Below are positions 6,838-44,931 of a stretch of DNA of 64,000 nt, piece after piece (the stretch's first letter is position 1; each line of letters begins with the position of its first letter). Position numbers and translations under genes: made by a program. The notes beneath the pieces were generated by a model. That model saw only the letters and a list, made by a program, of their open reading frames with translations. It did no database searches and was not told the origin of the DNA. This stretch comes from Rikenellaceae bacterium (lineage in GTDB: Bacteria; Bacteroidota; Bacteroidia; Bacteroidales; Rikenellaceae): NCBI GenBank assembly GCA_031551275.1, contig JAVBNX010000018.1, positions 5,501-69,500 on the forward strand, written 5' to 3'.

Positions 6838-6854
6838 TCCAAACTCAACCCTTT

Positions 6855-9800
6855 ATGAAAGACAACGACCTGACTAAAAAAAGGCCATCGAGGTGGATGC
6901 CTCTGGTGATGCTCCTGGGAGCGTTGATGCTCTCCCTGGGTGCAGCCGCCCAGCAGGTAGCTTCCGGCGTGGTGGTCGGAGGAGATCAGAAACCTTTGAT
7001 CGGTGCCACAGTGATCGAGAAAGGGACCACCAACGGGATGACCACCGGCCTGGACGGTAAATTCTCCCTGAAAGTGGCCCCCGGTGCGACCATCCTGGTA
7101 TCCTACATCGGGTATGAAACTCGGGAAATACCGGCGGCCAACGCCGTGAGTGCGACCATCGTCCTGTCGGAAGAATCCACGATGATGGAGAACCTGGTCG
7201 TCGTGGGATACGGCGCCCAGAAAAAAGAGAACCTGACCGGAGCGGTCGCATCGATCAATATCGCCGATATGGTCGACGGGCGTCCGGTAACCAGTGTCTC
7301 CTCCGCGTTGTCGGGGCTCAGCCCCGGCCTTTACGTCCAGCAGGCTACCGGACGGCCCAACGCCGACGGCTCCAACCTGCTGTTGCGCGGCCAGGGAACG
7401 CTCAGCGAGGATGTGAACAGCGCGAGCATGAGCAAGGCCGCCCCGATGATCGTCATCGACGGGATGGTCTCCACGATGAGCGATATGAACGCCCTCAACC
7501 CGATGGATATCGAGCAGATCTCGCTGCTGAAGGATGCGGCTTCCTCGTCGATCTACGGTTCGCGCGCGGCCAACGGCGTGATCCTGGTCAAGACCCGCCA
7601 GGGTGCCGAAAGCCGGTTTACCATCAACTACGCGGGCTATTGGGCCATGGCGCAGCCCTCCAACACGATCGAGACCGTGTCGAACTACGCCGACTACATG
7701 ACCTATTACAACGAGGCGCAACAAAACTCCTCCCCGGGAGCCTCGCCCCAATACAAGGATGCGACCATCCGCGCCTGGCTGGCCAACGACGATCCTTTGC
7801 GCTACCCCAATACCGACTGGCGGGACGAGATCTTCCAGAACGGGGTAATCAACAACCACTCGCTTTCGTTCAGCGGGGGAAGCAAGGAGATCAGGGCCTT
7901 CGGGTCGTTCGGTTACCTGCACAATCCGGGCATCATCGAGAACTCGACCTATGAGCAATACAACGGACGGATCAACGTGAGCGCCGACGTGAGGAAGTGG
8001 CTTACCCTGGGTGTCAACGCGCGCGGTTCGGTGGGCGACGCCGAGATGGGTTCCAAGGCGATGTCCAACCTGTTCGGCGGCATCGGCTCGCCGGGTATCG
8101 TCTACCGCCATCCCGACGGGCGCTACGGCGGCGCGGAAGCGACCGACGAGAGCCAGCAGATCCAGAGCCCGTTGTACGCCTTCAACAGCCGCCAGGGCAA
8201 CATCGTGAGCCGGGCGGTCCAATCGCGCTTCTTCGGAACGATCAGGCCCATGAAAGGCCTGACCGTCGAGGGTGCGTTCAACTACTCCTATACCGATATC
8301 ACGGAGCGCGAAACGCCGCTACTGGCCGAGATATGGAGCTTCCAGCGCAACGTGGTCATCAAAGAGAAGGCCGAGCACGACTATGCGCGCAACCGCCTCA
8401 ACGAGAGCGTACACGTACAGGGCGAGGTAATCGCACGCTACTCGACCACCTTTGCCGCCAAGCGCCTCAGCTTCGACGCCATGGCCGGTGCAAGCCAGGA
8501 GAAGACCAACGCGGGCTGGTTCGAAGCCCAGCGTTACGACCTGATAGACCCCAACCTGACCTCGATCAACGCGGCCACCGGCGAACAGATCGCCTCGGGG
8601 GTTGATCTGGGGGAAGGCTACGCCATGCGCTCCTATTTCGGGCGGGTCAACCTGGCCTGGGAGAACAAATACCTTCTGGAGGCCAACCTGCGGGTGGACC
8701 AGTCGTCGAAATTCGCACCCGACTACCGCACCGGTTGGTTCCCCTCGGTATCGGCAGGGTGGAGGATCGACCAGGAGAAATTCTTCGAGCCCCTCAAAAA
8801 GGTGGTCTCCAGCCTCAAGCTGAGGGCCTCCTACGGTTCGCTGGGTAATGAGAACATCGGCAACTACCAGTACCAGTCCAACTACACCAAAGATCCCTAC
8901 GTGCTCAACTATGCGTTGGCCAACGGGATGACCTATACGCTCTCCAACGCCGCTATCCAATGGGAATCGACCTACCTGGCCAACCTAGGGATCGACGTGG
9001 GCTTGTTCAACAACCGCCTGGAGGGGACCTTCGAGGTCTTCGACAAGATGTCCAAGAACGTTCTGGCCGTCTATCCCGCTCCCCTGCTGGTGGGTACGGC
9101 AAAGATCCCGGCCAGCAACGGGGCGCACATCAACAACCGGGGGCTCGAGTTGAGCCTCAAATGGAGGGACAGGATCGGCAAGGACTTCAACTATTACGTG
9201 AGCGGCAACTTCAGCTACATCCGCAACGAAGTGACCAAATACAAAGGGGACGAAAGGACCGTTTCCGGGGCCAACCTGGTCCAGGAGGGCCACCCGATCA
9301 ACGTGCAGTATGTCTACCGCGTCAGCAAGATCGTCAAAGACAGCGAGGATGTGGCCTATGTGCAGCAGATGATCGACAACGCCCCGTACGGCGGGGACGG
9401 TAAGAAACTCGACCCGTTCGCCGCGGTGGGAGGACGCCCCGGTTTGGGAGATTTCCTTTATACCGACATCAACGGCGACGGGGTTATCAACGACGACGAC
9501 AAGGTGCTGGTCGGATTCGGGCAGGTTCCCCCCATTACCTACGGTGCGCAGCTCGGGTGTTCCTGGAAAGGGATCGACTTCTCGGTCATGCTTCAGGGCA
9601 TCAAGGGGTATAAATGGCTCTGGCAGGACAACTTCAACATGGGCTACCTGAACTACGGCGGACCCATCAACAAGGAGTGGGCGGAAAACGCCTGGAGGCC
9701 ATCCAACCCCGAGGCCACCATGCCCAGGCTCAACATCCGCGGAACTGAGCAGAACAACGTGGAGAGCGACTACTGGGTGGCCGACAAATCGTACATGAGG

Positions 9801-9995
9801 ATCAAGAACATCCAGCTCGGCTACCAGTTCCCCAAAAAATGGACCGAAAAGATCCAGGTGTCCAGCGCAAGGATCTACGTGAGCCTGGAAAATTTCTTTA
9901 CCTTTACTAACTACAAGGGTATCGACCCCGAGGTAAGCGGAACCAACTATCCCACCCTCAAGCAGACCGTCTTCGGTGTGAACATCAATTTTTAA
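6855..9995 (+). CDS. SusC/RagA-family TonB-dependent outer-membrane transporter
   Basis: Start moved to the ATG at 6855 (MKDNDLTKKRPSRWMPLVMLLGALMLSLGAAAQQ). CarboxypepD_reg-like segment GATVIEKGTTNGMTTGLDGKFSLKV, plug segment NLVVVGYGAQKKENLTGAV, C-terminal barrel ending ...GVNINF. Confidence 0.92.
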   Translation: MKDNDLTKKRPSRWMPLVMLLGALMLSLGAAAQQVASGVVVGGDQKPLIGATVIEKGTTNGMTTGLDGKFSLKVAPGATILVSYIGYETREIPAANAVSATIVLSEESTMMENLVVVGYGAQKKENLTGAVASINIADMVDGRPVTSVSSALSGLSPGLYVQQATGRPNADGSNLLLRGQGTLSEDVNSASMSKAAPMIVIDGMVSTMSDMNALNPMDIEQISLLKDAASSSIYGSRAANGVILVKTRQGAESRFTINYAGYWAMAQPSNTIETVSNYADYMTYYNEAQQNSSPGASPQYKDATIRAWLANDDPLRYPNTDWRDEIFQNGVINNHSLSFSGGSKEIRAFGSFGYLHNPGIIENSTYEQYNGRINVSADVRKWLTLGVNARGSVGDAEMGSKAMSNLFGGIGSPGIVYRHPDGRYGGAEATDESQQIQSPLYAFNSRQGNIVSRAVQSRFFGTIRPMKGLTVEGAFNYSYTDITERETPLLAEIWSFQRNVVIKEKAEHDYARNRLNESVHVQGEVIARYSTTFAAKRLSFDAMAGASQEKTNAGWFEAQRYDLIDPNLTSINAATGEQIASGVDLGEGYAMRSYFGRVNLAWENKYLLEANLRVDQSSKFAPDYRTGWFPSVSAGWRIDQEKFFEPLKKVVSSLKLRASYGSLGNENIGNYQYQSNYTKDPYVLNYALANGMTYTLSNAAIQWESTYLANLGIDVGLFNNRLEGTFEVFDKMSKNVLAVYPAPLLVGTAKIPASNGAHINNRGLELSLKWRDRIGKDFNYYVSGNFSYIRNEVTKYKGDERTVSGANLVQEGHPINVQYVYRVSKIVKDSEDVAYVQQMIDNAPYGGDGKKLDPFAAVGGRPGLGDFLYTDINGDGVINDDDKVLVGFGQVPPITYGAQLGCSWKGIDFSVMLQGIKGYKWLWQDNFNMGYLNYGGPINKEWAENAWRPSNPEATMPRLNIRGTEQNNVESDYWVADKSYMRIKNIQLGYQFPKKWTEKIQVSSARIYVSLENFFTFTNYKGIDPEVSGTNYPTLKQTVFGVNINF

Positions 9996-10007: not shown

Positions 10008-11750
10008 ATGAAAACATACAAAAAATACATAGGCATTTTGGCCGCGCTCGCGGCGATGCAGGGGTGCTACGACCTGGATATGTATCCCACCACCCAGATC
10101 TCGTCCGGAACCTTCTGGTTGGATGAGGAGGACGCCAAGGAGGGGATCATGTCGGTCTACGCGAACATGAACGAGGAGGGTTCTTATGGCTATTGCGTGC
10201 TGCAGGATACCTATACCGACGTGGCTCAGGGCCCCGGAAGCGCCCGCGAGATCGGTACGCTGACCGGAGCGGACGCCCACCTGGTCAACAACTGGCAGCA
10301 CACCTGGGAGGGCGTGCAAAGGGCCAACCACGTGATCGCCATGGTCTCCCCGATGGGGGAGGAGAAGATCAACCCCCTCTCCAAAGCCCGTATCCTGGGC
10401 GAGGCCTACTTCATGCGGGCGTTGTACTACTTCCACCTAACCGACCTGTTCGGGGACCTGCCCATCTACGACGAAAGCTGGGAGGTAACGGAGAATTTTA
10501 CCCGGATGTACCTGCCCCGCAGCCCCCAATCCGATGTGTGGGACTTTATCATCTCCTCCCTGGACAAGGCCGTGGAGAGCCTGCCGGTGGCGTGGCCCGC
10601 GAGCGATTACGGCCGGGCGACCAAAGGGGCCGCCTACGCCCTGAGGGGGAAGGCCAAACTCTGGAAAAAAGACTACAAGGGAGCCATTGCGGACTTCGAG
10701 GAGATCGTTTACAACAAGACCTACGAATTCGGCTACACCCTCTACCCCAATCTGATGACGCTGTTCCTGACCGCGGGACCCGTTCCCGGCGACAAGGAGA
10801 CGATCTTCGCCATCCAGGCCAGCGGGATGTTGAACAACAACCTCGGGACGAGGGTAAACGTGCTGTTCGGCAACCGGGGAACCTACCTCAACGCCCAGGC
10901 GACCTGTACGCCCTCGGTCGATCTGGCCGATATGTACGAGTACAAGGACGGCAAGCCTTTCAGTTGGACGGAGATCTATCCCGACTGGGACGACTACGAC
11001 CCCGTTACCAAGACCTATCCCCGCAAGGAGGAGGTATTCCGCGGGGCGATCTCGGGGGTTACCCTTACCAAGATGCCCGACACCACCGCGCTGGGTAAGC
11101 TCTACCGCAGCCGCGACCCGAGGCTCTGCCAGACCATCATCGTGCCCTGGTCGACCTACCTGGGCTGGTCGGGCTCGGCGGCTAAGAACTTGCTGTTGGC
11201 CGTGGCCGACGGGGGCTCGGTGGCCAACGGGTTCATCCCCCAGGACCGGGGCTACTGGACCCACTACTACCGCAAGTTCGTCTACACGGGCGATTTGAAC
11301 GGTACGGTTCCCAACAACCGCTACAACTGTCCCATCAACGTGCCCCTGATCCGGCTTGCGGACGTGCTGCTGATGCTCTCCGAGGCCTACAACGAGGACA
11401 ACCAGCTCGACAAGGCCATCATTGAACTCAACAAGGTCAGGGCCAGGTTCTCGACCGGTATGCCGGGGCTGAACAGCGGCCCGGCGTGGCTGGCGGTCGG
11501 TAACAAACAGCAGATGCAGCAGAGGATCATCAAGGAGCGCGCCCTCGAACTCCACGGCGAAGGCCACCGCTTCGGCGATCTGAGGCGTTGGGGTGTGGCT
11601 GAGGATCTGCTCGACCAGAGCAAGGTCAGGGCCGTGGACGGGATGCACCAGTTTACCCGCTCGTTCAAGGAGCGCAACTATCTGTGGCCCCTGCCGACCG
11701 AGGAGTTGATCAACTGTCCCAATCTTTTACCCAATAACAACGGCTGGTAA
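10008..11750 (+). CDS. SusD/RagB-family nutrient-binding lipoprotein
   Basis: 580 aa, immediately downstream of SusC. Lipobox LAAMQGC. Typical SusD TPR-like segments (RANHVIAMV, EAYFMRALYYFHL, LLMLSEAYNE, ERALELHGEGHRFGDLRRWG). Confidence 0.92.
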   Translation: MKTYKKYIGILAALAAMQGCYDLDMYPTTQISSGTFWLDEEDAKEGIMSVYANMNEEGSYGYCVLQDTYTDVAQGPGSAREIGTLTGADAHLVNNWQHTWEGVQRANHVIAMVSPMGEEKINPLSKARILGEAYFMRALYYFHLTDLFGDLPIYDESWEVTENFTRMYLPRSPQSDVWDFIISSLDKAVESLPVAWPASDYGRATKGAAYALRGKAKLWKKDYKGAIADFEEIVYNKTYEFGYTLYPNLMTLFLTAGPVPGDKETIFAIQASGMLNNNLGTRVNVLFGNRGTYLNAQATCTPSVDLADMYEYKDGKPFSWTEIYPDWDDYDPVTKTYPRKEEVFRGAISGVTLTKMPDTTALGKLYRSRDPRLCQTIIVPWSTYLGWSGSAAKNLLLAVADGGSVANGFIPQDRGYWTHYYRKFVYTGDLNGTVPNNRYNCPINVPLIRLADVLLMLSEAYNEDNQLDKAIIELNKVRARFSTGMPGLNSGPAWLAVGNKQQMQQRIIKERALELHGEGHRFGDLRRWGVAEDLLDQSKVRAVDGMHQFTRSFKERNYLWPLPTEELINCPNLLPNNNGW

Positions 11751-11757: not shown

Positions 11758-12963
11758 ATGCGAAATTACATTCTTTTAGCCTTCCTGCCCCTGGCAATTT
11801 TCTCCTGCAAGCAGGCCCCTCAACAGGCTTACTCAGACAGCATGGATCCGGCAGCCATACGCCGGGTGGTCAACGATGCGATCGTATGGCAGACGCAGAA
11901 CATGCCCCAGGCGGGCCGCCACGAGTGGAATCCCCAATACACCGGCTGGGCCGACGGGGTCTTCCTGAGCGCGGTCTCCGACTGGGCCGAATACGATAAC
12001 GAGCGGAGCCTCAGGGAGTGGTACCAGGGGGTCGCCGAAAAGGTGCGTTGGGAACCTGCCTGGCGCACGATCAACCCCGCCAACGACGTGGCCGTGAGCC
12101 TGGCTTACGCGAAGATCTGGCAGAACGCCGAGATCAAGGAGCGCTTCCCTCTCTCCGAGATCGGGGAGTGGAACACCGACAAGGTACGCGAGTTGTTCGG
12201 CGGCTGGGGGCCTCTGATCCCCACCATCGAGAGGCTGGACTACCAGATGAAGTACTGCCCGCAGACCGACGACAGCCTTCGTTTCGAGAACCCGCTCAAC
12301 CACGAGCGCTGGTGCTGGTGCGACGCGCTGTACATGGCCGCGCCGACCTACGTGGCGTTCGCCAACATTACAGGCAACCAAGCGTACCTCGACTTCATGG
12401 AGAAGGAGTTCTGGCTTACCTTCGATGTGCTCTACTCCCCCCAGGACAGCCTGATCTACCGCGACACCCGCTTTATCGGGCAAAAGGAGAAAAACGGTGC
12501 CAAAGTCTTCTGGGGCCGGGGCAACGGCTGGGTGTTGGGCGCGCTGGCGCGTGTGATCGATCTGCTGCCGGCGGACTATCCCACCCGGGACCGCTACGTG
12601 GAGATGTACCAGCAGATGATGGCCCGGGTCGCCTCCCTGCAGGATGAGAACGGCTACTGGCATACCAGCATGCTCGATACGGAGAACTACACCTCCCCAG
12701 AGACCAGCGCGACGGGCTTCTTTACCTACGCGCTCTGGTGGGGGATCAACCGGGGGCTGATGGGCGAGGAGTATGTGCCGAAGGCCGAAAAAGCGTGGAA
12801 AGCGATGGTCGCGGCGGTCCATCCCGGCGGCAAACTGGGCTATGTGCAGCCCATCGGCGACGCGCCCGAGAACATATCCTTTGAAAAAAACGAGGTGTAC
12901 GGCACGGCCGCCTTCGCCCTGGCGGGGCTTGAGGCTGCCCGGTACGCCGAAACGATCGATTGA
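11758..12963 (+). CDS. GH105-like unsaturated rhamnogalacturonyl/glucuronyl hydrolase, lipoprotein
   Basis: 401 aa. Lipobox LAIFSC. YteR/YesR-type motifs WCWCDALYMAAP and FWGRGNGWVLGALARV. Confidence 0.8.
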   Translation: MRNYILLAFLPLAIFSCKQAPQQAYSDSMDPAAIRRVVNDAIVWQTQNMPQAGRHEWNPQYTGWADGVFLSAVSDWAEYDNERSLREWYQGVAEKVRWEPAWRTINPANDVAVSLAYAKIWQNAEIKERFPLSEIGEWNTDKVRELFGGWGPLIPTIERLDYQMKYCPQTDDSLRFENPLNHERWCWCDALYMAAPTYVAFANITGNQAYLDFMEKEFWLTFDVLYSPQDSLIYRDTRFIGQKEKNGAKVFWGRGNGWVLGALARVIDLLPADYPTRDRYVEMYQQMMARVASLQDENGYWHTSMLDTENYTSPETSATGFFTYALWWGINRGLMGEEYVPKAEKAWKAMVAAVHPGGKLGYVQPIGDAPENISFEKNEVYGTAAFALAGLEAARYAETID

Positions 12964-12965
12964 CC

Positions 12966-14132
12966 ATGACATCCAGAGAGAGAATTCAATTAGCCGTCGA
13001 CCACAAAGAGGCCGATAGGGTACCCTATGACCTGGCCGGGACGACCGTGACCGGGATCTGCGTCGGGGCATTCAAAAACGCCATGCGCGAGAGGGGACTC
13101 TCCACCGAATTCCAGAAGGAGGTGGATCCCATTTCGCAGATCGTAACCCCCGTCGAGGAGACGCTCGAGGTGTTGAAATCCGACACGCGCCGCATCGGTG
13201 CGCGCCGGGTAATCGACTACGAGGATATCCGCACCAAGCAGGGGACGGAGTGGTCGCTGGTCGACCATTGGGACTGCCTGTGGAAACTGGACGAGACCAA
13301 GGACCTCTACTACAACCAGTTTACACACCCGTTGGAGAGCTACGACTCGATTACCGAGGGGTTGCAGAAATGGCACGTGCCAGACTGGAGCAAATACGTG
13401 CCCCAGATGGAGAAGGACATCGCCGAGCAGGCTCCCTTCCTGGACGGATACGCCGGGATCGCCGACAGGAATTGCGCGGGGCTGACCGAGATGTCGCTCC
13501 GCATCCGGGGCTACACCAAGTGGTACATGGACCTGTTCCTCGATCCCGAGGGGGTGGACGCGCTTCTGGAACAGATTACCCAACACAAGCTCGACTACTG
13601 GAAGTCGCTGTTCGACTGGATGGATAAAAACGGGGTAACCCAGAAGATCGACGTGGTCAGCGAGTGCGACGATCTGGGAACCCAGTCCTCGACGCTGATC
13701 GACCCCGACCAGTTGCGCGAGCTGGTCATCCCGCGTTTCAAGCGGATCTGGGCTTATACCAAGCAGCGCGCTCCCCACGCCAAAAACTTCATGCACACCT
13801 GCGGGGCGGTCAGGCCCCTGCTGCCCGATCTGATCGAGGCGGGGCTGGATATCTACAACCCGGTGCAGTTTACCGCCAAGGACATGGACCTGGCGGGATT
13901 GAAGCGCGACTTCGGGAAAGACCTGGTCTTCTGGGGCGGGGGGATCGACACCCAGTCGACCCTGTGCAAGGGTACCCCCCAGCAGGTCTCGGACGAGATC
14001 AAGCGCATACTCGACATCATGGCCCCGGGCGGAGGCTTCGTCTTCGCCCCGGTGCACAACATTCAGGACGACGTTTCGGCCGCCAACTTCTGGGCCATGT
14101 GGGACACGTTGCAGGAGTACGGAAAATATTAG
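12966..14132 (+). CDS. uroporphyrinogen decarboxylase (URO-D)/MtaA-like family protein, cytoplasmic
   Basis: The first ATG is at 12966 (the track starts at TTG 12960). No signal peptide. N-terminus MTSRERIQLAVDHKEADRVPYDL and C-terminus PGGGFVFAPVHNIQ are typical of the URO-D TIM-barrel family. An H-x-C motif (FMHTCGAV) resembles the Zn site of MtaA-type methyltransferases. Confidence 0.7.
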   Translation: MTSRERIQLAVDHKEADRVPYDLAGTTVTGICVGAFKNAMRERGLSTEFQKEVDPISQIVTPVEETLEVLKSDTRRIGARRVIDYEDIRTKQGTEWSLVDHWDCLWKLDETKDLYYNQFTHPLESYDSITEGLQKWHVPDWSKYVPQMEKDIAEQAPFLDGYAGIADRNCAGLTEMSLRIRGYTKWYMDLFLDPEGVDALLEQITQHKLDYWKSLFDWMDKNGVTQKIDVVSECDDLGTQSSTLIDPDQLRELVIPRFKRIWAYTKQRAPHAKNFMHTCGAVRPLLPDLIEAGLDIYNPVQFTAKDMDLAGLKRDFGKDLVFWGGGIDTQSTLCKGTPQQVSDEIKRILDIMAPGGGFVFAPVHNIQDDVSAANFWAMWDTLQEYGKY

Positions 14133-14138: not shown

Positions 14139-15395
14139 ATGAAAAACTACCGCTGGACGATCTGCGCCCTGTTGTTCTTCGCCACCACGATCAACTACCT
14201 CGACAGGGCGGTGATCGGCCTGTTGAAAGAGACCTTGACCGGGGAGTTCAACTGGAGCGAGAGCGACTACGGCAACATCATCATCTGTTTCCAGGTCGCC
14301 TACGCCGTTTCGCTGCTGGGCGTGGGCTGGATCATCGACAAGGTGGGGACCAAACTGGGTTACACCCTTTCGATGATCGTCTGGAGCGTGGCCGCCGTCT
14401 TCCACGCCTTCGCGCGCGGGACTGTGGGCTTCGGCGCGGCAAGGGCCATGCTGGGCGCGGGCGAGGCGGGTAACTTCCCCGCCGCCAACAAGACCGTGGC
14501 CGAGTGGTTCCCCTTGAAGGAGCGCGCCCTGGCCACCGGGATCTACAACTCGGGATCGACCATCGGGGCCATCGTCGCGCCGATCGCCGTGCCGTTCATC
14601 GCCATCCAGTGGGGATGGAAATGGGCCTTTATCGCCACGGGTCTGATCGGGTTTATCTGGCTGGTCTTCTGGTTGCTTTGCTACCGCGCGCCGGACAAGG
14701 CGCAGGTGGAAGCCATGCAGGCCGAGCAACCCGAACCGGAGGAGTCCACCGCCAAGGTAAGCTGGTTCAGGCTGTTGGGTTACAAGCAGACCTGGGCTTT
14801 CGTGGTGGGGAAATTCTTCTCCGACCCCGTCTGGTGGTTCTTTTTGTTCTGGCTTCCCGCCTTCCTTAAATCGGAGTACGGGCTGACCGGGATGCAGGTC
14901 TCGCTGCCCTTGATCGTGGTCTACGCCATCTCCTCGGTGGGGAGCGTGTTCGGCGGCTGGCTGCCCAAACGGATGATCGAGGCGGGCAGAAGCGAGTCGG
15001 GCTCACGCAAGACCTCGATGCTGGTCTACGCGTTGATCCCGCTCCTGGTGCTGGTGGCCCAATGGGCGGGACGGTTCAATATGTGGTACGCGATCATTAT
15101 CATCGCGCTGGCTTGCGCGGCGCACTGCGCGTGGATGGCCAATTTGTTCGCCACGGTCTCTGATATGTTCCCCAAGAAGGCCGTCGCCTCGGTAACGGGC
15201 ATCGGCGGGATGGCCGGATCGGTGGGCGGGATCCTGATCGCCTGGGCCGCCGGTCTGCTCTTCGACCACTACAAGGCGATGGGCGATATCCGCGTGGGCT
15301 ACGGGATCATGTTCATGGTCTGCGCAGTGGCCTACCTGATCGCCTGGCTGATCATGCATTTCCTGGTCCCGAAATACAAGCGCCTCGATATATGA
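14139..15395 (+). CDS. MFS transporter, hexuronate (ExuT)-like
   Basis: 418 aa with about 12 predicted hydrophobic segments. N-terminus WTICALLFFATTINYLDRAVIGLLK is characteristic of the ACS/ExuT subfamily. Confidence 0.85.
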   Translation: MKNYRWTICALLFFATTINYLDRAVIGLLKETLTGEFNWSESDYGNIIICFQVAYAVSLLGVGWIIDKVGTKLGYTLSMIVWSVAAVFHAFARGTVGFGAARAMLGAGEAGNFPAANKTVAEWFPLKERALATGIYNSGSTIGAIVAPIAVPFIAIQWGWKWAFIATGLIGFIWLVFWLLCYRAPDKAQVEAMQAEQPEPEESTAKVSWFRLLGYKQTWAFVVGKFFSDPVWWFFLFWLPAFLKSEYGLTGMQVSLPLIVVYAISSVGSVFGGWLPKRMIEAGRSESGSRKTSMLVYALIPLLVLVAQWAGRFNMWYAIIIIALACAAHCAWMANLFATVSDMFPKKAVASVTGIGGMAGSVGGILIAWAAGLLFDHYKAMGDIRVGYGIMFMVCAVAYLIAWLIMHFLVPKYKRLDI

Positions 15396-16657
15396 AAAAG
15401 CTGATCTTTGCGGCGGTCGGTTTGTTGGCGGCCGCCTGCTGCCGGGTTGCTGAACCGAAGCCCGAACCGGGCGCGTTTTGCGTGAACATCCCCGCGGAGC
15501 ATCCCCGGATGGTTTTGAACAAGGCTGAGTTGGAAGCCCTTAAAGCGCATGTCGCCTCGGCGGAACAGCCCTGGAAAGGCGCGTGGGAAAACCTGCAGGC
15601 CACGGTCGAAAAGTACGCTTCCGACGAGTGGCAGCCCGATGTGTACATGGGCGACAACACGATGGATTACTACAAAGCCCTGATGCGGGACGGGGACGCG
15701 GCACGCGATCTGGCGATCGCCTACTGGGTCTCCGGCGAGGAGAGGTACGCCCGAAAAGGGGCGGCGATCCTCGCGGCCTGGCTGCCCAAAGAGGGTGCGC
15801 TGCCCGGCACGGCCTTCGATATGGAGGTCAACTACCCCAACCTGGGGATGCTGACCGGGCGGAGTATTTTTCCGTACCTCTACGCCTACGATCTGTTGAA
15901 AGGGGCGGGTAAGATCCCCGCCGGGGCGGATGCCAGGCTCGAGGAGTGGCTGCGCAGCCGCGTGGAGTACGTCAAGCAAGGCTCCCTGCGTTGGCGCGAC
16001 AGCAACTACTTTGACCGCCAATGGTACCAGAACCACCTGGTGGCCGACGCGATGGGCCTGATGGCGATCGCCGTGACCCTGAGGGACAGCGCGCTGATGC
16101 AGTATGCGGTCGACTCGCCCATCAACGAAAGGGACGTTAAGGAGTTGGTCTCCGGAATAATCCTGATGGAGGGCCAGCCAAAATACTACCGCGAGCCGGG
16201 CGACTGGCCCACCCAAACGGGCGAGATCGCCGACCGCTACCGCCATTTCGCCATAGGCGGACATTACAAAGATTATGTAACTTTGCCCGACCGGGGACTG
16301 CAATACTGCGGGCTTTCGTCGAGCCTGCTGCTCTCCATCGCCGAGATGGGACGGCACAACGGGATCGACGTCTACCAATACGTCGCGCCCGAGGGGGAGA
16401 ACCTCAAGCTGCCGATGCTGTTCTATTCGGAGTTCTACATCACGCACGATTCGTCGGTCAACGGCGGGTTCTATGCCGGGGAGGACGACTGGATCAACGC
16501 TGGGGACGCCGACACGTGGGAGATGTGGGAGGTGGCCAATAAACGGTGGCCCGGCGAGGAAAAATTCCGCGAAGTGTTGCGCGTCAACCGGGGGAATTAC
16601 CTTTCGATGCACCAACTGGGGCCGGTTTCGCTGACCCATGCGGAAAAAATAGATTAA
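15392..16657 (+). CDS. polysaccharide lyase-like (alpha/alpha)-toroid lipoprotein (alginate_lyase/PL5-PL38-like), paralog 1
   Basis: 421 aa. ATGA start/stop overlap with the MFS gene. Lipobox LAAAC. Motif WYQNHLVADAMG contains an Asn-His pair like the catalytic NH of PL5-type lyases, and GEIADRYRHFAIGGHY gives an Arg/Tyr segment. CAZy family not assigned. Confidence 0.55.
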   Translation: MKKLIFAAVGLLAAACCRVAEPKPEPGAFCVNIPAEHPRMVLNKAELEALKAHVASAEQPWKGAWENLQATVEKYASDEWQPDVYMGDNTMDYYKALMRDGDAARDLAIAYWVSGEERYARKGAAILAAWLPKEGALPGTAFDMEVNYPNLGMLTGRSIFPYLYAYDLLKGAGKIPAGADARLEEWLRSRVEYVKQGSLRWRDSNYFDRQWYQNHLVADAMGLMAIAVTLRDSALMQYAVDSPINERDVKELVSGIILMEGQPKYYREPGDWPTQTGEIADRYRHFAIGGHYKDYVTLPDRGLQYCGLSSSLLLSIAEMGRHNGIDVYQYVAPEGENLKLPMLFYSEFYITHDSSVNGGFYAGEDDWINAGDADTWEMWEVANKRWPGEEKFREVLRVNRGNYLSMHQLGPVSLTHAEKID

Positions 16658-16658
16658 A

Positions 16659-18599
16659 ATGAAAAAAATCCTTTTGCTGTTGTGCCTTTTGGCCGGGATG
16701 AAGGCCTTCGGGGCCTTTCCGGAGCGTCCACGGTTGGTCCTTTCGGCCTCGGACCTGGTGGAGTTGAGAGAGCATGTGGAGTCGGAGAAGCAGCCCTGGA
16801 AATGGGCCTGGGAGAACCTGCAAAAGGATGCCGAGCGGTATATGGCGGAGAAATTCCAGCCCATGCCCTACTTCGGGCCCGACAGCAAAAAGTGCTACGA
16901 CGTTTTGATGCGGGACGCCTACGCGGCCCGCGACCTGGCCATCGCCTATTACGCCTCGGGCGAGAAGCGCTACGCCGAAAAGGCCGCCATGATCCTGGCC
17001 GCGTGGCTGCCCAGGGAGGGCCCCCTGCCCGGGACGGCGTTCGATCCCGAGTTGAACTACTCGAGCCTGGGGATGCTTGCCGCCCGCTCGATCTTCCCCT
17101 ACCTCTACGCCTACGACCTGTTGAAAGGGGGCGGCATGATCCCCGAGGGGGCCGATGCGAGGCTGGAGGAGTGGTTGAGAAGCCGTGCGGAGCAAATCCG
17201 CGAGGGAGCCCGCCGGTGGAAGGATAACGACTACTTCGATAAGCAGTATTACCAGAACCACATCGTCGCCGACGCGATGGGCCTGATGGCGATCGGGATC
17301 ACTTTGGGCGACGAACAGATGGTCCGGTACGCGGTCGACTCGCCCGGGAACGAGCGCGATCTGAAAGATTTGATCGCCGGGATCATCCTGATGGAGGGCG
17401 AGAAACCCTACTACCGCGAGCCGGGCGACTGGCCCGTGCAGACGGGCGAGATCGCCGACCGCTACCGCCACTTCGAGATCGGGGGGCACTACAAGGACTA
17501 TGTGACCAAGCCCAACCGGGGGCTGCAGTACTGCGGGCTCTCGACCACGCTGTTGATGATCGCCGCCGAGATGGGGCGTTTGAACGGGATCGACCTGTGG
17601 GGCTATGTCGCCCCGGGGGGCGAAACGCTGCGCCTGCCGTTGGAGTTCTACTCGGGATTCTATTACCTGAAAAGCGATACGATCCAGGGCGGGTTCTACA
17701 CCGGGGAGAAACCCTGGATCAACGGCAACGAGTCGTGCACCTGGACGATGTGGGAGGTGGGCAACAAGCGCCTGCCCGGCGAAAAGAAATTCGAGGCGGT
17801 CCTGGAGGCCAACCGGGGCGGGAAGTATATGCCCCTGCATTTGCTGGGCCCCGTGGCGTTGACCCACGCCGTGGCCCTGACTCCGGAGCAGGAGATGGCT
17901 GCCCTCAAATTGCTTCCCTGGAAGACAACCTTTGAGGACGGTATGAGAGGCGATTGGCAGGAGAAATGGCATCTGGATGGCGAGGTCGGGACGGTAAAAA
18001 CCTCGCCCAAAGGGCTGGAAATGAAGGCCGGGCCCCAGGAGAAGAACAACGCCGACCACATGGTTTTGTGGGCCAAACCGGAGTTCAAGGGCCCCGTCAG
18101 GATCGAATACGACTTTACCCGGTTGGATAAATCGAAGGCCGGGACGGTCAATATCATCTACCTGATGGCCACCGGAAGCGGCCAGGGCCCCTACAAGGAG
18201 GATATTTTCGAATGGAACGACCTGCGCAAAGTCCCCGCGATGGCTACCTATTTCGACCACATGAACGCCTACCACATCAGCTACGCGACCGTGGACCCGG
18301 AGGGCAGCTACGTACGTGCGCGCAGATATATGCCCCTGCTGAACAAGGGATTGAACGGCACGGCTTTAACGCCCGAGTACATCCATGCCGATATGTTCAA
18401 GCCCGGCGTGAAGTACCACATCACAGTCATCCAACACGGCGACAGGCTCTTTCTGGAGGCGACCGGCAAGGGGAAGACCGAGCTCTTCTGGTTCGATACC
18501 TCGACCCTGCCGCCTTTGGACCGCGGGCGCGTAGGCCTGCGGTTGATGTGGACGCGCAACTCGCTCTTCTCGGATTTCTCGGTCGGAACGCTGGAATAA
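16659..18599 (+). CDS. polysaccharide lyase-like toroid protein, paralog 2, with C-terminal YesU/DUF1961-like (ConA-like) domain
   Basis: 646 aa with an SPI-type signal (MKAFGAF). The first ~410 aa are about 70-75 percent identical, by eye alignment, to the upstream gene (YYQNHIVADAMG, GEIADRYRHFEIGGHY). The extra ~230-aa C-terminal domain (nt ~17901-18599) resembles DUF1961 by recall. Confidence 0.55.
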   Translation: MKKILLLLCLLAGMKAFGAFPERPRLVLSASDLVELREHVESEKQPWKWAWENLQKDAERYMAEKFQPMPYFGPDSKKCYDVLMRDAYAARDLAIAYYASGEKRYAEKAAMILAAWLPREGPLPGTAFDPELNYSSLGMLAARSIFPYLYAYDLLKGGGMIPEGADARLEEWLRSRAEQIREGARRWKDNDYFDKQYYQNHIVADAMGLMAIGITLGDEQMVRYAVDSPGNERDLKDLIAGIILMEGEKPYYREPGDWPVQTGEIADRYRHFEIGGHYKDYVTKPNRGLQYCGLSTTLLMIAAEMGRLNGIDLWGYVAPGGETLRLPLEFYSGFYYLKSDTIQGGFYTGEKPWINGNESCTWTMWEVGNKRLPGEKKFEAVLEANRGGKYMPLHLLGPVALTHAVALTPEQEMAALKLLPWKTTFEDGMRGDWQEKWHLDGEVGTVKTSPKGLEMKAGPQEKNNADHMVLWAKPEFKGPVRIEYDFTRLDKSKAGTVNIIYLMATGSGQGPYKEDIFEWNDLRKVPAMATYFDHMNAYHISYATVDPEGSYVRARRYMPLLNKGLNGTALTPEYIHADMFKPGVKYHITVIQHGDRLFLEATGKGKTELFWFDTSTLPPLDRGRVGLRLMWTRNSLFSDFSVGTLE

Positions 18600-18605
18600 A
18601 ATAAA

Positions 18606-18630
18606 GAAGGGAGCCTCAAAGGCTCCCTTC
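18606..18630. terminator. bidirectional hairpin between convergent genes
   Basis: gaagggagcct/caa/aggctcccttc forms a perfect 11-bp stem, sitting between the lyase paralog 2 stop and the methyltransferase stop. Confidence 0.5.
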
Positions 18631-18634
18631 CCGG

Positions 18635-19408
18635 TTACAGTTTCCTGCCTATGTAGAACACATAGCCGTAAAACTCCTTGTATTTGTGGTAGAGTCCCAT
18701 TTCATGGCGTTGGCTGGCGATCAGCGACTCGGCGGTGGGATTTCCTGCGTATTTCTTCAGGAAGATCTCCTGCGCGGCCGCCTGCGGGGCGTAGAAATCC
18801 TCGGTCCAGCAGCTCTCCGGCAGGATAAAGTGCGCGACCGGGACATACCCCGCCCGTTGCATCTGGGCGACGTTGTCGGGGATCGTCGTGATCAGGGGGT
18901 AGGAGTCCATCCAGAACTTTTCGATCTCGGCGGGACGCTCGGCCGTAAACCACGACGCCTCGGTCACGGCGACGTAGCCGCCGGGTTTGAGCATGCGCCG
19001 CCACTCGGTCAGGCCCCTCTCGAAGCCGATGTTGTAGATCGCGCCCTCCGACCAGATCAGGTCCAGCTCTTCATCCCCGAAGGAGAGGTCGTCCATCGAG
19101 CCGACCACGCCCTGCACCCTGTCTTGGAGGCCCAGGGCGGCGGCGTTCGCGTTGAACCGGTCGATAAAGGCGGGGAACAGGTCGATGCCGGTAATATGTC
19201 CCTGGACGTGCTGCGCCAGGGTCATGGTCTGGCCGCCCGTGCCGCAGCCGATATCGGCGATGCGGGATTGGGGAGTCAGGTTATCGATGTATTCCAGCGC
19301 CCTGAGGGTCATTTCGGGGCTTCCCGGGCCTTGGCGTTCAACGCCTGAGAAGTATTCGCAGATCAGGTTGAAGTCGAAATCGTGAACGGTTTTATATTCG
19401 TTTTCCAT
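18635..19408 (-). CDS. class I SAM-dependent methyltransferase
   Basis: 257 aa. SAM motif [13 protein letters not shown], followed by LKPGGYVAV (post-II/III motifs). Confidence 0.85.
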
Positions 19409-19589
19409 TGTTGTTTTTCGTTGAAAATCAATAATAAAAAGAGTGCCCGGAAAGAGAATTCCGGGAAAAACGAAAGGGACAATCCGAAAGTTTAATGCTT
19501 CACGGATTGTTTACAACACCGAATCCGAATATAGGAAGAGGGTAAACATCCAAGGGTTTTAGTACTGCAAAGGTAAGCAAAGTTTCTGG

Positions 19590-21746: not shown

Positions 21747-21759
21747 AGGTCCGGATTGT

Positions 21760-21786
21760 AAAAAGGGAAGGCTTTTGGGCCTTCCC
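21760..21786 (-). terminator. rho-independent terminator of the pilus-like operon
   Basis: On the minus strand: gggaaggc/ccaaaa/gccttccc followed by TTTTT, located 25 nt after the stop of the 21811-24132 gene. Confidence 0.55.
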
Positions 21787-21810
21787 CGTTGTTTTTATGC
21801 GTTGAAAAGC

Positions 21811-24132: not shown

Positions 24133-24145
24133 CGTTCGCTCGAAA

Positions 24146-24889: not shown

Positions 24890-24892
24890 GGA

Positions 24893-27415: not shown

Positions 27416-27429
27416 ATCTCCTTTTGTTA

Positions 27430-28467: not shown

Positions 28468-28475
28468 TATTTTTG
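28468..28475 (+). promoter_or_regulatory. candidate TAnnTTTG -7 box for lyase paralog 3
   Basis: TATTTTTG lies 21 nt upstream of the ATG at 28496. Confidence 0.3.
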
Positions 28476-28495
28476 TGTAAAGCTAAACCAGAATT

Positions 28496-30332: not shown

Positions 30333-30372
30333 GAAGGCCCGCCGGAATTTTCGGCGGGCCTTCATTGTTTTT
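30333..30372. terminator. strong hairpin terminator between convergent genes
   Basis: gaaggcccgccg/gaatttt/cggcgggccttc is a perfect 12-bp GC-rich stem, followed by attgttttt on the plus strand. Confidence 0.65.
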
Positions 30373-44604: not shown

Positions 44605-44605
44605 G

Positions 44606-44690
44606 TACTCGGAACGGGAATCGAACCCGTACGGCCGCTATGGCCACAGGATTTTAAGTCCGGCGTGTCTACCAATTCCACCATCCGAGC
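44606..44690 (-). tRNA. tRNA-Leu (anticodon TAA)
   Basis: The reverse complement GCTCGGATGGTGGAATTGGTAGACACGCCGGACTTAAAATCCTGTGGCCATAGCGGCCGTACGGGTTCGATTCCCGTTCCGAGTA has D-loop GGAATTGGTAGAC, anticodon loop CTTAAAA, a long variable arm and T-loop GGTTCGATTCC. It also has a G1-U72 wobble and a C-U mismatch in the anticodon stem. Confidence 0.7.
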
Positions 44691-44700
44691 AATCCGGGGG

Positions 44701-44708
44701 CAAAGATA
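44701..44708 (-). promoter_or_regulatory. candidate TAnnTTTG box for tRNA-Leu (second copy at 44744-44751)
   Basis: The minus strand reads TATCTTTG 10 nt upstream of the mature tRNA 5' end. An identical TATCTTTG lies 43 nt further upstream. Confidence 0.35.
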
Positions 44709-44897: not shown

Positions 44898-44931
44898 CCA
44901 ACCCAAAATGAGGGGAAAACTGACAGCGAAT

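What the first reader, a model, noticed from the sequence alone, without database searches (positions are those of the whole stretch)
15392..18599. Tandem paralogous lyase-like toroid proteins with an Asn-His / RYRH signature; a third copy at 28496: candidate uncharacterised polysaccharide lyase group
Three genes share a core with conserved segments:
- 15392-16657: [WY]YQNH[LI]VADAMG and GEI[AY]DRYRH, no accessory domain;
- 16659-18599: same core plus a C-terminal ~230-aa YesU/DUF1961-like, ConA-like domain;
- 28496-30319: same core (LWQNHLVAASMG in the third copy) plus an N-terminal BACON-like domain.

The two adjacent copies are roughly 70-75 percent identical over the stretches I aligned by eye, which suggests a recent tandem duplication. 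The Asn-His pair and a downstream Arg/Tyr segment resemble the catalytic arrangement of PL5-type (alpha/alpha) toroid lyases. I cannot place them in a named PL family, and the flanking sequence does not look like a textbook alginate lyase. Three copies differing in accessory domain and signal type (lipobox in copies 1 and 3, SPI signal in copy 2) suggest division of labour on one substrate.
Basis: partly seen in the sequence, partly recalled or inferred. Interest (0 to 1): 0.7.

Follow-up and report, generated by a model that had tools for sequence, protein, structure and literature searches.

The report
Uncharacterised lyase family in rhamnose-glucuronate locus
Three genes in a Bacteroidales sugar-harvesting locus encode an uncharacterised branch of the alginate-lyase-like enzymes; their neighbours and natural gene fusions suggest they cut a polysaccharide built from glucuronic acid and rhamnose, not alginate.

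Summary
All three ORFs exist as described, carry both motifs, and pass Pfam PF05426 (42-70 bits). c2 ends in a YesU/DUF1961 domain; c3 starts with a BACON-like domain. Corrections: c1/c2 are 66% identical, not 70-75%, and their synonymous sites are nearly saturated, so the duplication is lineage-specific but old. c3 belongs to a separate, ancient "short-loop" subfamily.

AlphaFold models match only (alpha/alpha)-toroid lyases (PL38, PL5, PL17). Profile comparison with PL38 (98% probability) pairs N214/H215 with N242/H243, R284 of DRYRH with R292, and Y305 of GLQY with catalytic Y298. The family is nonetheless separate: members score 157-1045 bits on their own model and at most 52 on a BoPL38-type model.

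c1 and c2 close a SusC/SusD operon. Its unsaturated-glucuronyl hydrolase best matches the ulvan GH105 that splits unsaturated GlcA from rhamnose. Related loci add rhamnose mutarotase, and relatives are fused to GH105-like, GH145-like and DUF1961 domains. Long- and short-loop forms co-occur in 16 of 25 multi-copy loci and are fused in four.

Best reading: a probable new lyase family acting on Rha-alpha-1,4-GlcA linkages. No assay exists, and CAZy assignment could not be tested.

The parts
1438..5445 (-). Hybrid two-component system sensor/regulator, divergent from the operon
   Evidence: Pfam Reg_prop, Y_Y_Y, HisKA, HATPase_c, Response_reg and HTH_18. Homologues at 40-49% identity flank the related loci.
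6855..9995 (+). SusC-like TonB-dependent transporter. The ORF opens at 6072; the likely start is M262, at nt 6855.
   Evidence: Pfam CarbopepD_reg_2 and Plug. Signal-like N-terminus after M262. 50-53% identity to the SusC of related loci.
10008..11750 (+). SusD-like glycan-binding lipoprotein
   Evidence: Pfam SusD_RagB 132 bits and SusD-like_3.
11758..12963 (+). Unsaturated glucuronyl hydrolase (Pfam 'GH88' model, GH105-like); lipoprotein signal
   Evidence: PF07470 at 256 bits. Best solved relative is 4ce7, 'unsaturated 3S-rhamnoglycuronyl hydrolase', at E=2.7e-60. The remaining named hits are GH105/YteR-type proteins; 5noa is labelled 'Family 88'. N-terminus LPLAIFSC.
12960..14132 (+). URO-D / MtaA-CmuA-like cytoplasmic protein of unknown role; conserved member of the locus type
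   Evidence: PF01208 at 72 bits. Weak MtaA hits in NCBIfam (57 bits against a cut-off of 244) and in the PDB (4ay7, E=0.002). 66-68% identical homologues in L002 and L006/L039.
14139..15395 (+). MFS transporter resembling the D-galactonate (sugar-acid) transporter group; overlaps the c1 start by 4 nt
   Evidence: MFS_1 at 183 bits. TIGR00893 D-galactonate transporter at 224 bits, below its cut-off.
15392..16657 (+). c1: long-loop toroid lyase-like lipoprotein, no accessory domain
   Evidence: PF05426 at 64 bits. AF2 pLDDT 88.7. Foldseek top hits are PL38, PL5 and PL17. Predicted catalytic residues N214, H215, R284 and Y305.
16659..18599 (+). c2: long-loop toroid (aa 1-~410) plus C-terminal DUF1961/YesU-like domain (aa 436-641, nt 17964-18581); type I signal
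   Evidence: PF05426 at 70 bits and DUF1961 at 28 bits. YesU 1oq1 at E=0.003. 66% identical to c1. The public annotation calls it 13 aa shorter, as the 633-aa P0002.
18604..18632 (.). 13-bp GC-rich hairpin between the convergent c2 and methyltransferase genes; probable end of the operon
   Evidence: Terminator-like site.
28496..30319 (+). c3: short-loop toroid lyase-like lipoprotein with an N-terminal BACON-like beta-sandwich (aa 72-124, nt 28709-28867); monocistronic
   Evidence: PF05426 at 42 bits and BACON at 24.3 bits. 375 bits on the family model. In the AF2 model most core helices reach pLDDT 85-96. Foldseek returns the same PL38/PL5/PL17 set. QNH at aa 331-333, DRYRH at 415-419, GFQY at 426-429.
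28469..28476 (+). TATTTTTG box about 20 nt upstream of the c3 start (Bacteroidota -7 type, TAnnTTTG)
   Evidence: Read from the sequence. The consensus is from general knowledge and was not tested.
30333..30363 (.). 14-bp hairpin terminator after c3

Best explanation
c1, c2 and c3 are beta-eliminating polysaccharide lyases. They belong to an uncharacterised sequence family within the alginate-lyase-like (alpha/alpha)-toroid superfamily, and they form the depolymerising part of one polysaccharide utilisation system.

Proposed pathway (all steps inferred).
1. The BACON-bearing lipoprotein c3 (short-loop form) makes the first cuts at the cell surface.
2. SusC/SusD import the oligosaccharides.
3. 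In the periplasm the long-loop forms c1 and c2 cut them down to small unsaturated oligosaccharides. c2 is tethered to a YesU-like lectin domain.
4. The GH105-like hydrolase removes the 4,5-unsaturated glucuronate.
5. The sugar-acid-type MFS transporter takes the acid product into the cell.

Proposed chemistry, by homology to PL38 and PL5.
- N214 and R284 neutralise and distort the +1 uronate.
- Y305 abstracts H5 and protonates the leaving O4, giving syn elimination on glucuronate.
- H215 is available as the anti base for a C5-epimeric uronate.

The most likely bond cleaved is L-rhamnose-alpha-1,4-glucuronate. That would mean an ulvan-like glucuronorhamnan backbone or Rha-GlcA motifs of arabinogalactan-type glycans.

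What is shown: homology, fold, conservation of the four residues, operon structure, and the conserved gene partners and fusions. What is inferred: lyase activity, cellular locations, the order of action and the substrate.
For: Fold and catalytic residues.
- Pfam PF05426 is above its cut-off for all three.
- The AF2 models match only toroid lyases, with TM about 0.6.
- hhalign against PL38 gives probability 98.3% and E=2.6e-14 over 272 columns. It aligns QNH to NNH, R284 to R292 and Q304-Y305 to H297-Y298.
- H215, R282, Y283, R284 and Y305 are invariant in 28 sequences. N/H, DRYR and the GLQY Tyr are at least 90% conserved in 63 divergent members.

Genomic context.
- The lyase genes sit in a tight operon with SusC/SusD, a GH105-like hydrolase and an MFS transporter.
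- The hydrolase's best solved relative is the ulvan unsaturated-GlcA-Rha3S hydrolase 4ce7 (E=2.7e-60).
- Rhamnose mutarotase is present in 10 of 37 related genome loci, including 9 of 14 Bacteroidota loci.
- One related locus lies next to uxaA, uxuB, kdgK and eda.

Natural fusions of the toroid.
- With a GH105-like domain in P0033.
- With a GH145-like domain in P0043 (E about 1e-39 to 1e-43 to the GH145 structures 5mum, 5mvh, 4irt and 5muk; 1e-15 to the PL42 Rha-alpha-1,4-GlcA lyase). GH145 enzymes cleave Rha-GlcA caps and work with GH105 (PMC8406133).
- With DUF1961 in both orders.
- YesU is a lectin that binds fucose, another 6-deoxy-L-hexose (PMC6120924).

Subfamily pairing.
- Long and short forms co-occur in 16 of 25 multi-copy loci and are fused in 4.
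Against: - No member of the family has been assayed.
- The window's own operon lacks rhaM.
- The GH105 match was found by sequence only, and 4ce7 acts on a sulfated product. The window and the other gut-type loci show no sulfatase within reach.
- No abundant unsulfated GlcA-Rha polymer in gut habitats is known to me.
- The R284-R292 equivalence rests on a single aligned residue between gaps.
- I could not inspect model coordinates, so the active-site geometry is unverified.
- Two conserved partners, the URO-D-like protein and DUF1961, have no assigned step.
- PL38 relatives show that this fold accepts alginate, glucuronan and glycosaminoglycans.
Confidence: 0.55

Rival explanations
1. They are ordinary polyuronate lyases with PL38- or PL5-like specificity (beta-1,4-glucuronan or alginate). 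The locus would then be a glucuronan or alginate locus.
For: - Pfam 'Alginate_lyase' hits.
- The closest structures are the alginate-active BoPL38 and PL5 enzymes.
- PL38 includes glucuronan lyases, and Bacteroides species grow on cellouronate.
- Lyases plus an unsaturated-glucuronyl hydrolase and a sugar-acid transporter would be enough to use a GlcA homopolymer.
Against: - The family scores at most 52 bits on a BoPL38-type model and lacks the PL38 PYWWPD...DGERNPE segment that carries Y91 and D108.
- The known PL38 carriers named in the papers read (B. ovatus, B. luhongzhouii, B. clarus, A. muciniphila) were not among the 37 loci found with the family's motifs.
- No PL6, PL7, PL15 or PL17 exolyase, KdgF or DEH reductase is in the locus.
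- This reading leaves unexplained the rhaM, the GH145-like fusion and the ulvan-type GH105.
Confidence: 0.17
2. They are glycosaminoglycan-type lyases (hyaluronan, chondroitin, heparosan or similar bacterial capsules). The disaccharides would be finished off by the unsaturated glucuronyl hydrolase.
For: - Some PL38 enzymes cut hyaluronan and chondroitin. Amuc_0778 acts ahead of a GH105, and RiPL38 also cuts these substrates.
- Lyases plus an unsaturated-glucuronyl hydrolase is the minimal glycosaminoglycan gene set.
- RiPL38 also combines a ConA-like domain with an alginate-lyase domain.
Against: - There are no sulfatases and no hexosamine-handling genes in the window locus.
- The hydrolase is nearest to the ulvan enzyme, and its other named solved relatives are GH105/YteR-type rather than glycosaminoglycan GH88 enzymes.
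- rhaM and the GH145 fusion point to rhamnose.
- The family is widespread in free-living Verrucomicrobiota and Planctomycetota.
Confidence: 0.1
3. They are exo-acting cap-removing lyases, functional analogues of PL27, PL42 and GH145. They would only strip terminal rhamnose from Rha-alpha-1,4-GlcA caps of arabinogalactan proteins and would not depolymerise a backbone.
For: - The GH145-like fusion.
- The GH145/GH105 pairing described for B. plebeius.
- rhaM in related loci.
Against: - The locus has no galactanase, galactosidase or arabinofuranosidase to use the remaining glycan.
- Two to six paralogues per locus, one of them a BACON-bearing lipoprotein, is the pattern of backbone depolymerisation.
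Confidence: 0.13
4. They are not lyases. They would be uronate C5-epimerases, hydrolases or non-catalytic binding proteins that kept the toroid fold.
For: - BoPL38 itself has a minor epimerase activity using the same residues.
- No biochemical data exist for this family.
Against: - All four lyase residues are conserved family-wide.
- A hydrolase specific for unsaturated products is in the same operon, and in one relative (P0033) it is fused to the toroid.
Confidence: 0.05

Closest known systems
PL38 (BoPL38 of Bacteroides ovatus, PDB 8bdq/9fhu; BACOVA_01668, PDB 3nfv, is a related structure whose CAZy family I did not verify)
   Same: - Single-domain (alpha/alpha)-toroid fold; these are the best Foldseek hits (TM 0.56-0.62).
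- Profile-profile probability 98.3%.
- Equivalent Asn-His, Arg and Tyr residues.
- Encoded in Bacteroides SusC/SusD loci.
   Different: - 13-17% identity.
- c1, c2 and c3 score only 28, 31 and 14.5 bits on a BoPL38-type model, against 320-660 bits for PL38 members.
- They lack the PL38 N-terminal PYWWPD...DGERNPE segment with Y91 and D108.
- They have Q instead of H297.
- They carry the invariant GEIxDRYRH motif, and a hairpin insert of about 10-17 residues in the long-loop forms.
- The genomic partners differ: ulvan-type GH105, rhaM, DUF1961 and a URO-D-like protein.
PL5 alginate lyases (A1-III 1qaz/1hv6/4f13, Smlt1473, PanPL)
   Same: - Same fold and same Pfam model (PF05426).
- Foldseek TM about 0.58 to the query.
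   Different: - The family profile reaches A1-III only at E=1.6e-5 over about 50 residues.
- The family lacks the NNHSYW motif (recalled from memory, not tested).
- PL5 enzymes act on polymannuronate and are not associated with GH105 or rhaM.
Ulvan lyases (PL24, PL25, PL28, PL37, PL40) and Rha-alpha-1,4-GlcA lyases (PL27, PL42, lyase site of GH145)
   Same: - The predicted bond (rhamnose alpha-1,4 to glucuronate) and the downstream step (GH105 acting on unsaturated GlcA).
- A family member is physically fused to a GH145-like domain.
   Different: - There is no sequence relationship.
- PL24, PL25, PL42 and GH145 are beta-propellers; the other families are also different folds.
- This is a functional analogy inferred from context only.
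YesU of Bacillus subtilis (DUF1961, PDB 1oq1)
   Same: - The c2 C-terminal domain is a weak homologue (E=0.003); the domain in P0056 is a strong one (E=4e-30).
- YesU is encoded in a rhamnogalacturonan cluster alongside a GH105 (general knowledge).
- YesU binds 6-deoxy-L-hexose (fucose) glycans.
   Different: - Here the domain is fused to, or encoded next to, a toroid lyase.
- Its ligand in this system is unknown.
- Invariant H467, E483, Y531, H539, R555 and R628 leave a catalytic role open.

Membership tests
Pfam PF05426 Alginate_lyase (AlgL-like toroid superfamily) | Score above the curated gathering cut-off (22.2 bits) | tested here: met
   64.4, 70.4 and 42.2 bits for c1, c2 and c3. 60 of 63 divergent family members also hit.
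Pfam PF05426 Alginate_lyase (AlgL-like toroid superfamily) | (alpha/alpha)-toroid fold | tested here: met
   The c1 model has pLDDT 88.7. The top 50 Foldseek hits for the c1 and c3 models are all toroid polysaccharide lyases.
CAZy PL38 | Family-level sequence similarity to characterised PL38 enzymes | tested here: not met
   - On a model built from 39 BoPL38 homologues, c1, c2 and c3 score 28, 31 and 14.5 bits, and 175 family members have a median of 14 bits. PL38 members score 320-660 bits.
- phmmer of c1 against 8bdq gives E=0.013.
- Caveat: the model covers only sequences at least 44% identical to BoPL38. It is not the CAZy/dbCAN PL38 model.
CAZy PL38 | N-terminal PYWWPD...DGERNPE segment carrying Y91 and D108 of BoPL38 | tested here: not met
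   These residues are invariant in the PL38 alignment. The segment appears as a template-only insertion of about 50 residues in the hhalign alignment.
CAZy PL38 | Catalytic N242, H243, R292 and Y298 | tested here: met
   Aligned to N214, H215, R284 and Y305. The Tyr alignment is also seen with HMMER. The Arg equivalence is weakly supported.
CAZy PL38 | Assignment by the CAZy/dbCAN PL38 model | not testable with these tools
   No dbCAN library is available. The sequence of RiPL38, a ConA-like domain plus alginate-lyase domain protein that dbCAN calls PL38, could not be fetched.
CAZy PL5 | Family-level similarity to A1-III/AlgL | tested here: not met
   The family profile reaches 1hv6 at E=1.6e-5 (27 bits), over roughly profile positions 287-335 only. 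c1 alone finds no PL5 chain at E<=1.
CAZy PL17 / PL15 / heparinase II-III type | Toroid followed by a Hepar_II_III beta-sandwich domain (PF07940) | tested here: not met
   No PF07940 hit in c1, c2 or c3. The C-terminal domain of c2 is DUF1961.
Bacteroidota polysaccharide utilisation locus | Adjacent SusC/SusD pair with co-oriented carbohydrate-active enzymes and a dedicated regulator | tested here: met
   HTCS regulator, SusC, SusD, hydrolase, transporter, c1 and c2, separated by gaps of -4 to 12 nt. The same set recurs in Bacteroidales and Pseudopedobacter loci; 12 of the 14 Bacteroidota loci show a SusC hit.
Rha-alpha-1,4-GlcA / ulvan lyases (functional class) | Demonstrated beta-elimination at a rhamnose-glucuronate linkage | not testable with these tools
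   Only contextual evidence exists: the GH105 resembling 4ce7, rhaM, and the GH145-like fusion.
Pfam DUF1961 (YesU-like) | Score above the cut-off (25 bits) | tested here: met
   28.0 bits for c2 aa 436-641. 44-51% identity to the stand-alone DUF1961 genes of related loci.
Pfam BACON | Score above the cut-off (25 bits) | tested here: inconclusive
   24.3 bits, E=3.2e-5. The model shows a beta-sandwich at aa 52-122 with pLDDT of only 54-69. Homologues are annotated as BACON.

The most novel reading that the evidence does not exclude
This is a new polysaccharide lyase family with three unusual features.
- Its long-loop and short-loop paralogues form an obligatory pair. They are sometimes fused in one chain, and they would act on a glucuronate-rhamnose glycan that no toroid lyase is known to cut. 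The two forms might divide endo from exo action, or GlcA from its C5 epimer.
- The conserved DUF1961 module would be a new rhamnose-directed binding or catalytic domain.
- The conserved URO-D/MtaA-like protein, sugar-acid MFS transporter and aldo-keto reductase would be an undescribed cytoplasmic route for the released sugars.
Probability: 0.3. Interest if true: 0.7.

Novelty: new variant of a known kind. Interest (0 to 1): 0.5.

Why it matters
If the prediction holds, it would add a polysaccharide lyase family and extend the alginate-lyase fold to rhamnose-glucuronate linkages. Those linkages occur in ulvan-like algal glycans and in the caps of plant arabinogalactan proteins.

It would also define a compact, recognisable locus type shared by gut Bacteroidales and by free-living Verrucomicrobiota and Planctomycetota. 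Many genes now labelled 'alginate lyase family protein' would need re-annotation.

Two conserved partners of unknown role, DUF1961 and a URO-D/MtaA-like protein, would gain a testable context. Cultured carriers exist, so the locus can be tested directly.

Tried and rejected
- Single-sequence PDB searches with c1 and c3 gave only marginal hits. A family profile was needed.
- The word-index homologue search with c1 returned only 28 proteins. The exhaustive profile search showed the family is larger: 171 clusters at E<1e-30.
I then stitched a full BoPL38-like sequence from a frameshifted long-read contig and used that.
- Literature searches for PL43-46, DUF1961, 'new polysaccharide lyase family', and rhaM+GH88+SusD found nothing on this family.
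- The ulvan oligosaccharide dehydratase was considered and dropped. It belongs to PL37, a different family.
- PL27 membership was dropped because no PL27 chain appears among the profile's PDB hits.
- A xanthan or gellan locus was rejected because GH92, GH3, beta-glucosidase and rhamnosidase genes are absent.
- Model coordinates are not exposed, so I could not measure active-site distances or check for a groove or tunnel.
- The window's organism could not be named. The closest locus homologues are about 50% identical and come from Rikenellaceae, Alistipes and Paludibacter MAGs.

Full report
**1. Observation**

The three ORFs are real and sit where stated, all on the + strand: c1 15392-16657 (421 aa), c2 16659-18599 (646 aa) and c3 28496-30319 (607 aa). 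Their third-codon-position GC is 0.81-0.88, like the other credible genes of this roughly 60% GC window.

Both motifs are present in all three.

| Gene | QNH segment | GEIxDRYRH segment |
|---|---|---|
| c1 | WYQNHLVADAMG | GEIADRYRH |
| c2 | YYQNHIVADAMG | GEIADRYRH |
| c3 | LWQNHLVAASMG | GEIYDRYRH |

c1 and c2 are 66% identical over 383 residues. c1 and c3 are 32% identical, E=2e-49.

c2 residues 436-641 pass the Pfam DUF1961 cut-off (28 bits against 25) and weakly match YesU. c3 residues 72-124 fall just short of the BACON cut-off (24.3 against 25). They model as a beta-sandwich, and homologues carry clear BACON annotations.

Two details need correcting.
- The c1/c2 identity is 66%, not 70-75%.
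- The duplication is not recent. Identical residues use the same codon 61% of the time, against 55% expected if synonymous sites were saturated. It is still lineage-specific: c2 is c1's best match in a 5.8-billion-protein collection, and the next best is 50% identical.

**2. Fold and family**

All three pass Pfam PF05426 'Alginate_lyase' (64, 70 and 42 bits; cut-off 22.2). NCBIfam has no model for them.

An AlphaFold model of c1 built on 28 homologues is confident (pLDDT 88.7, pTM 0.89) and all-helical, with one hairpin region. Its top 50 Foldseek PDB matches are all (alpha/alpha)-toroid polysaccharide lyases:
- BoPL38 and BACOVA_01668 (TM 0.56-0.62);
- PL5 A1-III;
- PL17, PL39, PL15, the GAGase II and chondroitinase glycosaminoglycan lyases, and heparinase II;
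- sequence identity is 10-17% throughout.

The c3 model is less confident overall (pLDDT 68.8), although most of its core helices reach 85-96. It returns the same set of lyases.

A profile of the family reaches solved structures only remotely and about equally.

| Structure | Family | E-value |
|---|---|---|
| 3nfv | PL38-like (CAZy family not verified here) | 2.5e-9 |
| BoPL38 | PL38 | about 9e-6 |
| 8bdd | PL17 | 9e-6 |
| A1-III | PL5 | 1.6e-5 |

To test PL38 membership I first rebuilt a BoPL38-like sequence from a frameshifted metagenomic contig. I then collected its homologues (1502 at E<=1e-10), aligned 39 of them, and compared the two families.
- hhalign gives 98.3% probability, E=2.6e-14, 272 columns and 22% identity. 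The two families are homologous.
- The cross-scores separate them completely.

| Sequences scored | On the family's own model | On the BoPL38-type model |
|---|---|---|
| 175 family members | 157-1045 bits | median 14, maximum 52 bits |
| 120 PL38 members | median 30 bits | 320-660 bits |
| c1 / c2 / c3 | 600 / 589 / 375 bits | 28 / 31 / 14.5 bits |

The family also lacks the invariant PL38 N-terminal segment PYWWPD...DGERNPE, which carries BoPL38 Y91 and D108.

The PL38 carriers named in the papers I read are B. ovatus, B. luhongzhouii, B. clarus and A. muciniphila. None of them appears among the 37 genome loci found with the family's two signature motifs.

The family is not rare. It comprises 171 clusters (at 50% identity) at E<1e-30, and 620 at E<1e-10.

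I could not run dbCAN, so a formal CAZy assignment remains open. A ConA-like-plus-alginate-lyase protein that dbCAN calls PL38 (RiPL38) could not be retrieved for comparison.

**3. Catalytic residues**

In BoPL38, Y298 is the syn base and the acid. H243 is the anti base. R292 distorts and neutralises the +1 uronate. N242 and H297 assist (bioRxiv 10.1101/2024.12.11.627697).

The profile-profile alignment gives these equivalences for c1.

| c1 | BoPL38 |
|---|---|
| Q213-N214-H215 | N241-N242-H243 |
| R284 (second Arg of DRYRH) | R292 |
| Q304-Y305 (GLQY) | H297-Y298 |

HMMER independently aligns GLQY...GE with SLHY over 54 residues.

Conservation agrees with these assignments. H215, E278, D281, R282, Y283, R284 and Y305 are invariant in the 28-sequence alignment. 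N/H, E..DRYR and the GLQY Tyr are at least 90% conserved in 63 divergent multidomain members.

The RYRH segment probably supplies the Arg. The catalytic Tyr is most likely the one 20 residues downstream in c1 and c2, and 10 residues downstream in c3.

The Arg equivalence rests on one residue aligned between gaps. I could not inspect coordinates, so it is an inference.

**4. Two subfamilies that travel together**

The spacing between DRYR and the catalytic Tyr splits the family.
- The 'long-loop' form has about 20 residues, with an HF.GGHYKDYVT hairpin. c1 and c2 are of this type.
- The 'short-loop' form has about 8-10 residues. c3 is of this type.

Of the 25 loci with at least two toroid domains, 16 carry both forms. 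At least three more are masked by my pattern or ORF definition. Four Verrucomicrobiota loci encode short and long forms in one polypeptide. Representatives P0029-P0032 are also tandem toroids.

In Bacteroidota loci the short form usually carries an N-terminal BACON domain and lies inside the locus. c3 is thus the window's copy of a standard locus component. Here it lies 9.9 kb away, beyond a methyltransferase gene, a 718-aa lipoprotein gene and an Mfa-type fimbrial cluster on the other strand. That block is not conserved next to related loci. c3 has its own promoter-like box and its own terminator.

**5. Context**

c1 and c2 are the last genes of a tightly packed + strand operon, with gaps of -4 to 12 nt:
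- SusC;
- SusD;
- an unsaturated glucuronyl hydrolase;
- a URO-D/MtaA-like cytoplasmic protein;
- an MFS transporter resembling the D-galactonate (sugar-acid) transporter group;
- c1, then c2.

A divergent hybrid two-component regulator lies upstream, and a hairpin terminator follows c2.

The hydrolase hits the Pfam 'GH88' model. Its best solved relative is 4ce7, the ulvan 'unsaturated 3S-rhamnoglycuronyl hydrolase', at E=2.7e-60. Its other named hits are GH105/YteR-type proteins.

The same gene set recurs in Alistipes, Rikenellaceae, Bacteroides spp., Paludibacter, Cryptobacteroides and Pseudopedobacter. Additions in those loci:
- a stand-alone secreted DUF1961 gene;
- L-rhamnose mutarotase, in 10 of 37 genome loci and 9 of 14 Bacteroidota loci;
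- an aldo-keto reductase.

One locus adjoins uxaA, uxuB, kdgK and eda. Verrucomicrobiota and Planctomycetota loci add sulfatases, SASA esterases and a GH78 rhamnosidase.

Natural fusions tie the toroid to three partners.
- A GH105-like hydrolase, in P0033.
- A GH145-like propeller, in P0043. Its Pfam BNR_4 hit is E=1.4e-94. Against the GH145 structures 5mum, 5mvh, 4irt and 5muk it scores E=5e-43 to 3e-39, and against the PL42 Rha-alpha-1,4-GlcA lyase 7e-15. The gene lies next to kdgK and eda.
- DUF1961, in both orders: N-terminal in P0056 and in L011, C-terminal only in the window's c2.

GH145 enzymes remove rhamnose from Rha-alpha-1,4-GlcA caps, by hydrolysis or by beta-elimination, and hand the product to a GH105 (PMC8406133). 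YesU, the founding DUF1961 protein, is a lectin for fucosylated glycans (PMC6120924). Fucose, like rhamnose, is a 6-deoxy-L-hexose.

**6. Most likely mechanism**

I propose that this system degrades a glycan in which rhamnose is alpha-1,4-linked to glucuronate. The best fit is an ulvan-like alternating GlcA-Rha backbone, because lyases plus a GH105 would be enough to reduce such a polymer to unsaturated uronate and rhamnose. The locus encodes no other glycosidase.

The steps would be as follows.
1. c3, a lipoprotein with a BACON domain and a charged segment after its lipidated Cys, cuts at the surface.
2. SusC/SusD import the fragments.
3. c1 and c2 finish depolymerisation in the periplasm. 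c2 is aided by its lectin-like domain.
4. The GH105-like enzyme releases the unsaturated uronate.
5. The MFS transporter imports it.

Locations, order of action and substrate are all inferred. I rate 'polysaccharide lyase acting on a 4-linked uronate' at about 0.8, and the Rha-GlcA specificity at about 0.5-0.55.

**7. Rivals**

- Glucuronan or alginate specificity, as in PL38 and PL5 (0.17).
- Glycosaminoglycan-type specificity (0.10).
- Cap removal only (0.13).
- Not a lyase at all (0.05).

Each rival leaves at least one recurrent partner unexplained (rhaM, the GH145 fusion or the ulvan-type GH105), or conflicts with the absence of the enzymes that substrate would require.

**8. Novelty and verdict**

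Fold, catalytic machinery and locus logic are all of a known kind. The new elements are:
- a well-separated and apparently unassayed sequence family;
- its constant long-loop/short-loop pairing;
- a predicted specificity that no toroid lyase is known to have;
- two conserved partners without an assigned role.

No paper on the family was found.

I classify it as a new variant of a known kind. It is a good enzyme-discovery lead with cultured carriers available, but it is not a conceptual surprise. Interest: 0.5.

Noticed in passing
window 12960-14132 (+) and 14139-15395 (+): A cytoplasmic URO-D/MtaA-CmuA-like protein and a sugar-acid-type MFS transporter sit inside the operon. They recur together with an aldo-keto reductase and rhaM in related loci (L006/L039, L002/L041, L012). 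No corrinoid partner is visible and the role is unknown. It could be an alternative route for the unsaturated uronate or for rhamnose.
   Followed up: partly
window 17964-18581 (c2 aa 436-641); L011 9140-11164; P0056: DUF1961 is fused to a long-loop toroid at least twice independently, in opposite orders. Elsewhere it is a separate secreted or lipoprotein gene. Eight aligned copies share invariant H467, E483, Y531, H539, R555 and R628 (c2 numbering), which looks like a binding or active site.
   Followed up: partly
window 16659-16697: The public gene call for c2 (P0002, 633 aa) starts 13 codons downstream of the ATG at 16659. That call would remove the signal peptide, so the longer ORF is more plausible.
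   Followed up: partly
window 18635-28275 (- strand): A block of genes separates the operon from c3: a SAM methyltransferase, a 718-aa lipoprotein with only a weak GH95-N-like hit (PF14498, E=0.002), and three Mfa-type fimbrillin or anchor genes. None of it lies next to related loci, so it may be an insertion or rearrangement that displaced c3.
   Followed up: partly
window 6072-9995: The SusC ORF opens about 260 codons upstream of a plausible start (M262, nt 6855, followed by a signal-like segment). The upstream part is probably not translated.
   Followed up: partly
window 44605-58118: The lower-GC stretch at 44-50 kb is the chromosomal core cluster: tRNA-Leu, -Thr, -Tyr and -Gly, tuf, tRNA-Trp, rplA, rplJ, rpoB and rpoC. 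The locus is therefore chromosomal and not on a mobile element.
   Followed up: yes
L028 8320-10513 (Bacteroides sp. KFT8): The long-loop toroid gene of this complete genome matches in two pieces separated by about 1 kb. It looks like a disrupted gene.
   Followed up: no
L045 and L046 (ENA long-read assemblies): PL38, PL17, KdgF and MFS genes of a B. ovatus-type alginate locus are broken into many short ORFs by frameshifts. This is an assembly-quality artefact, and it explains the fragmentary hits.
   Followed up: yes
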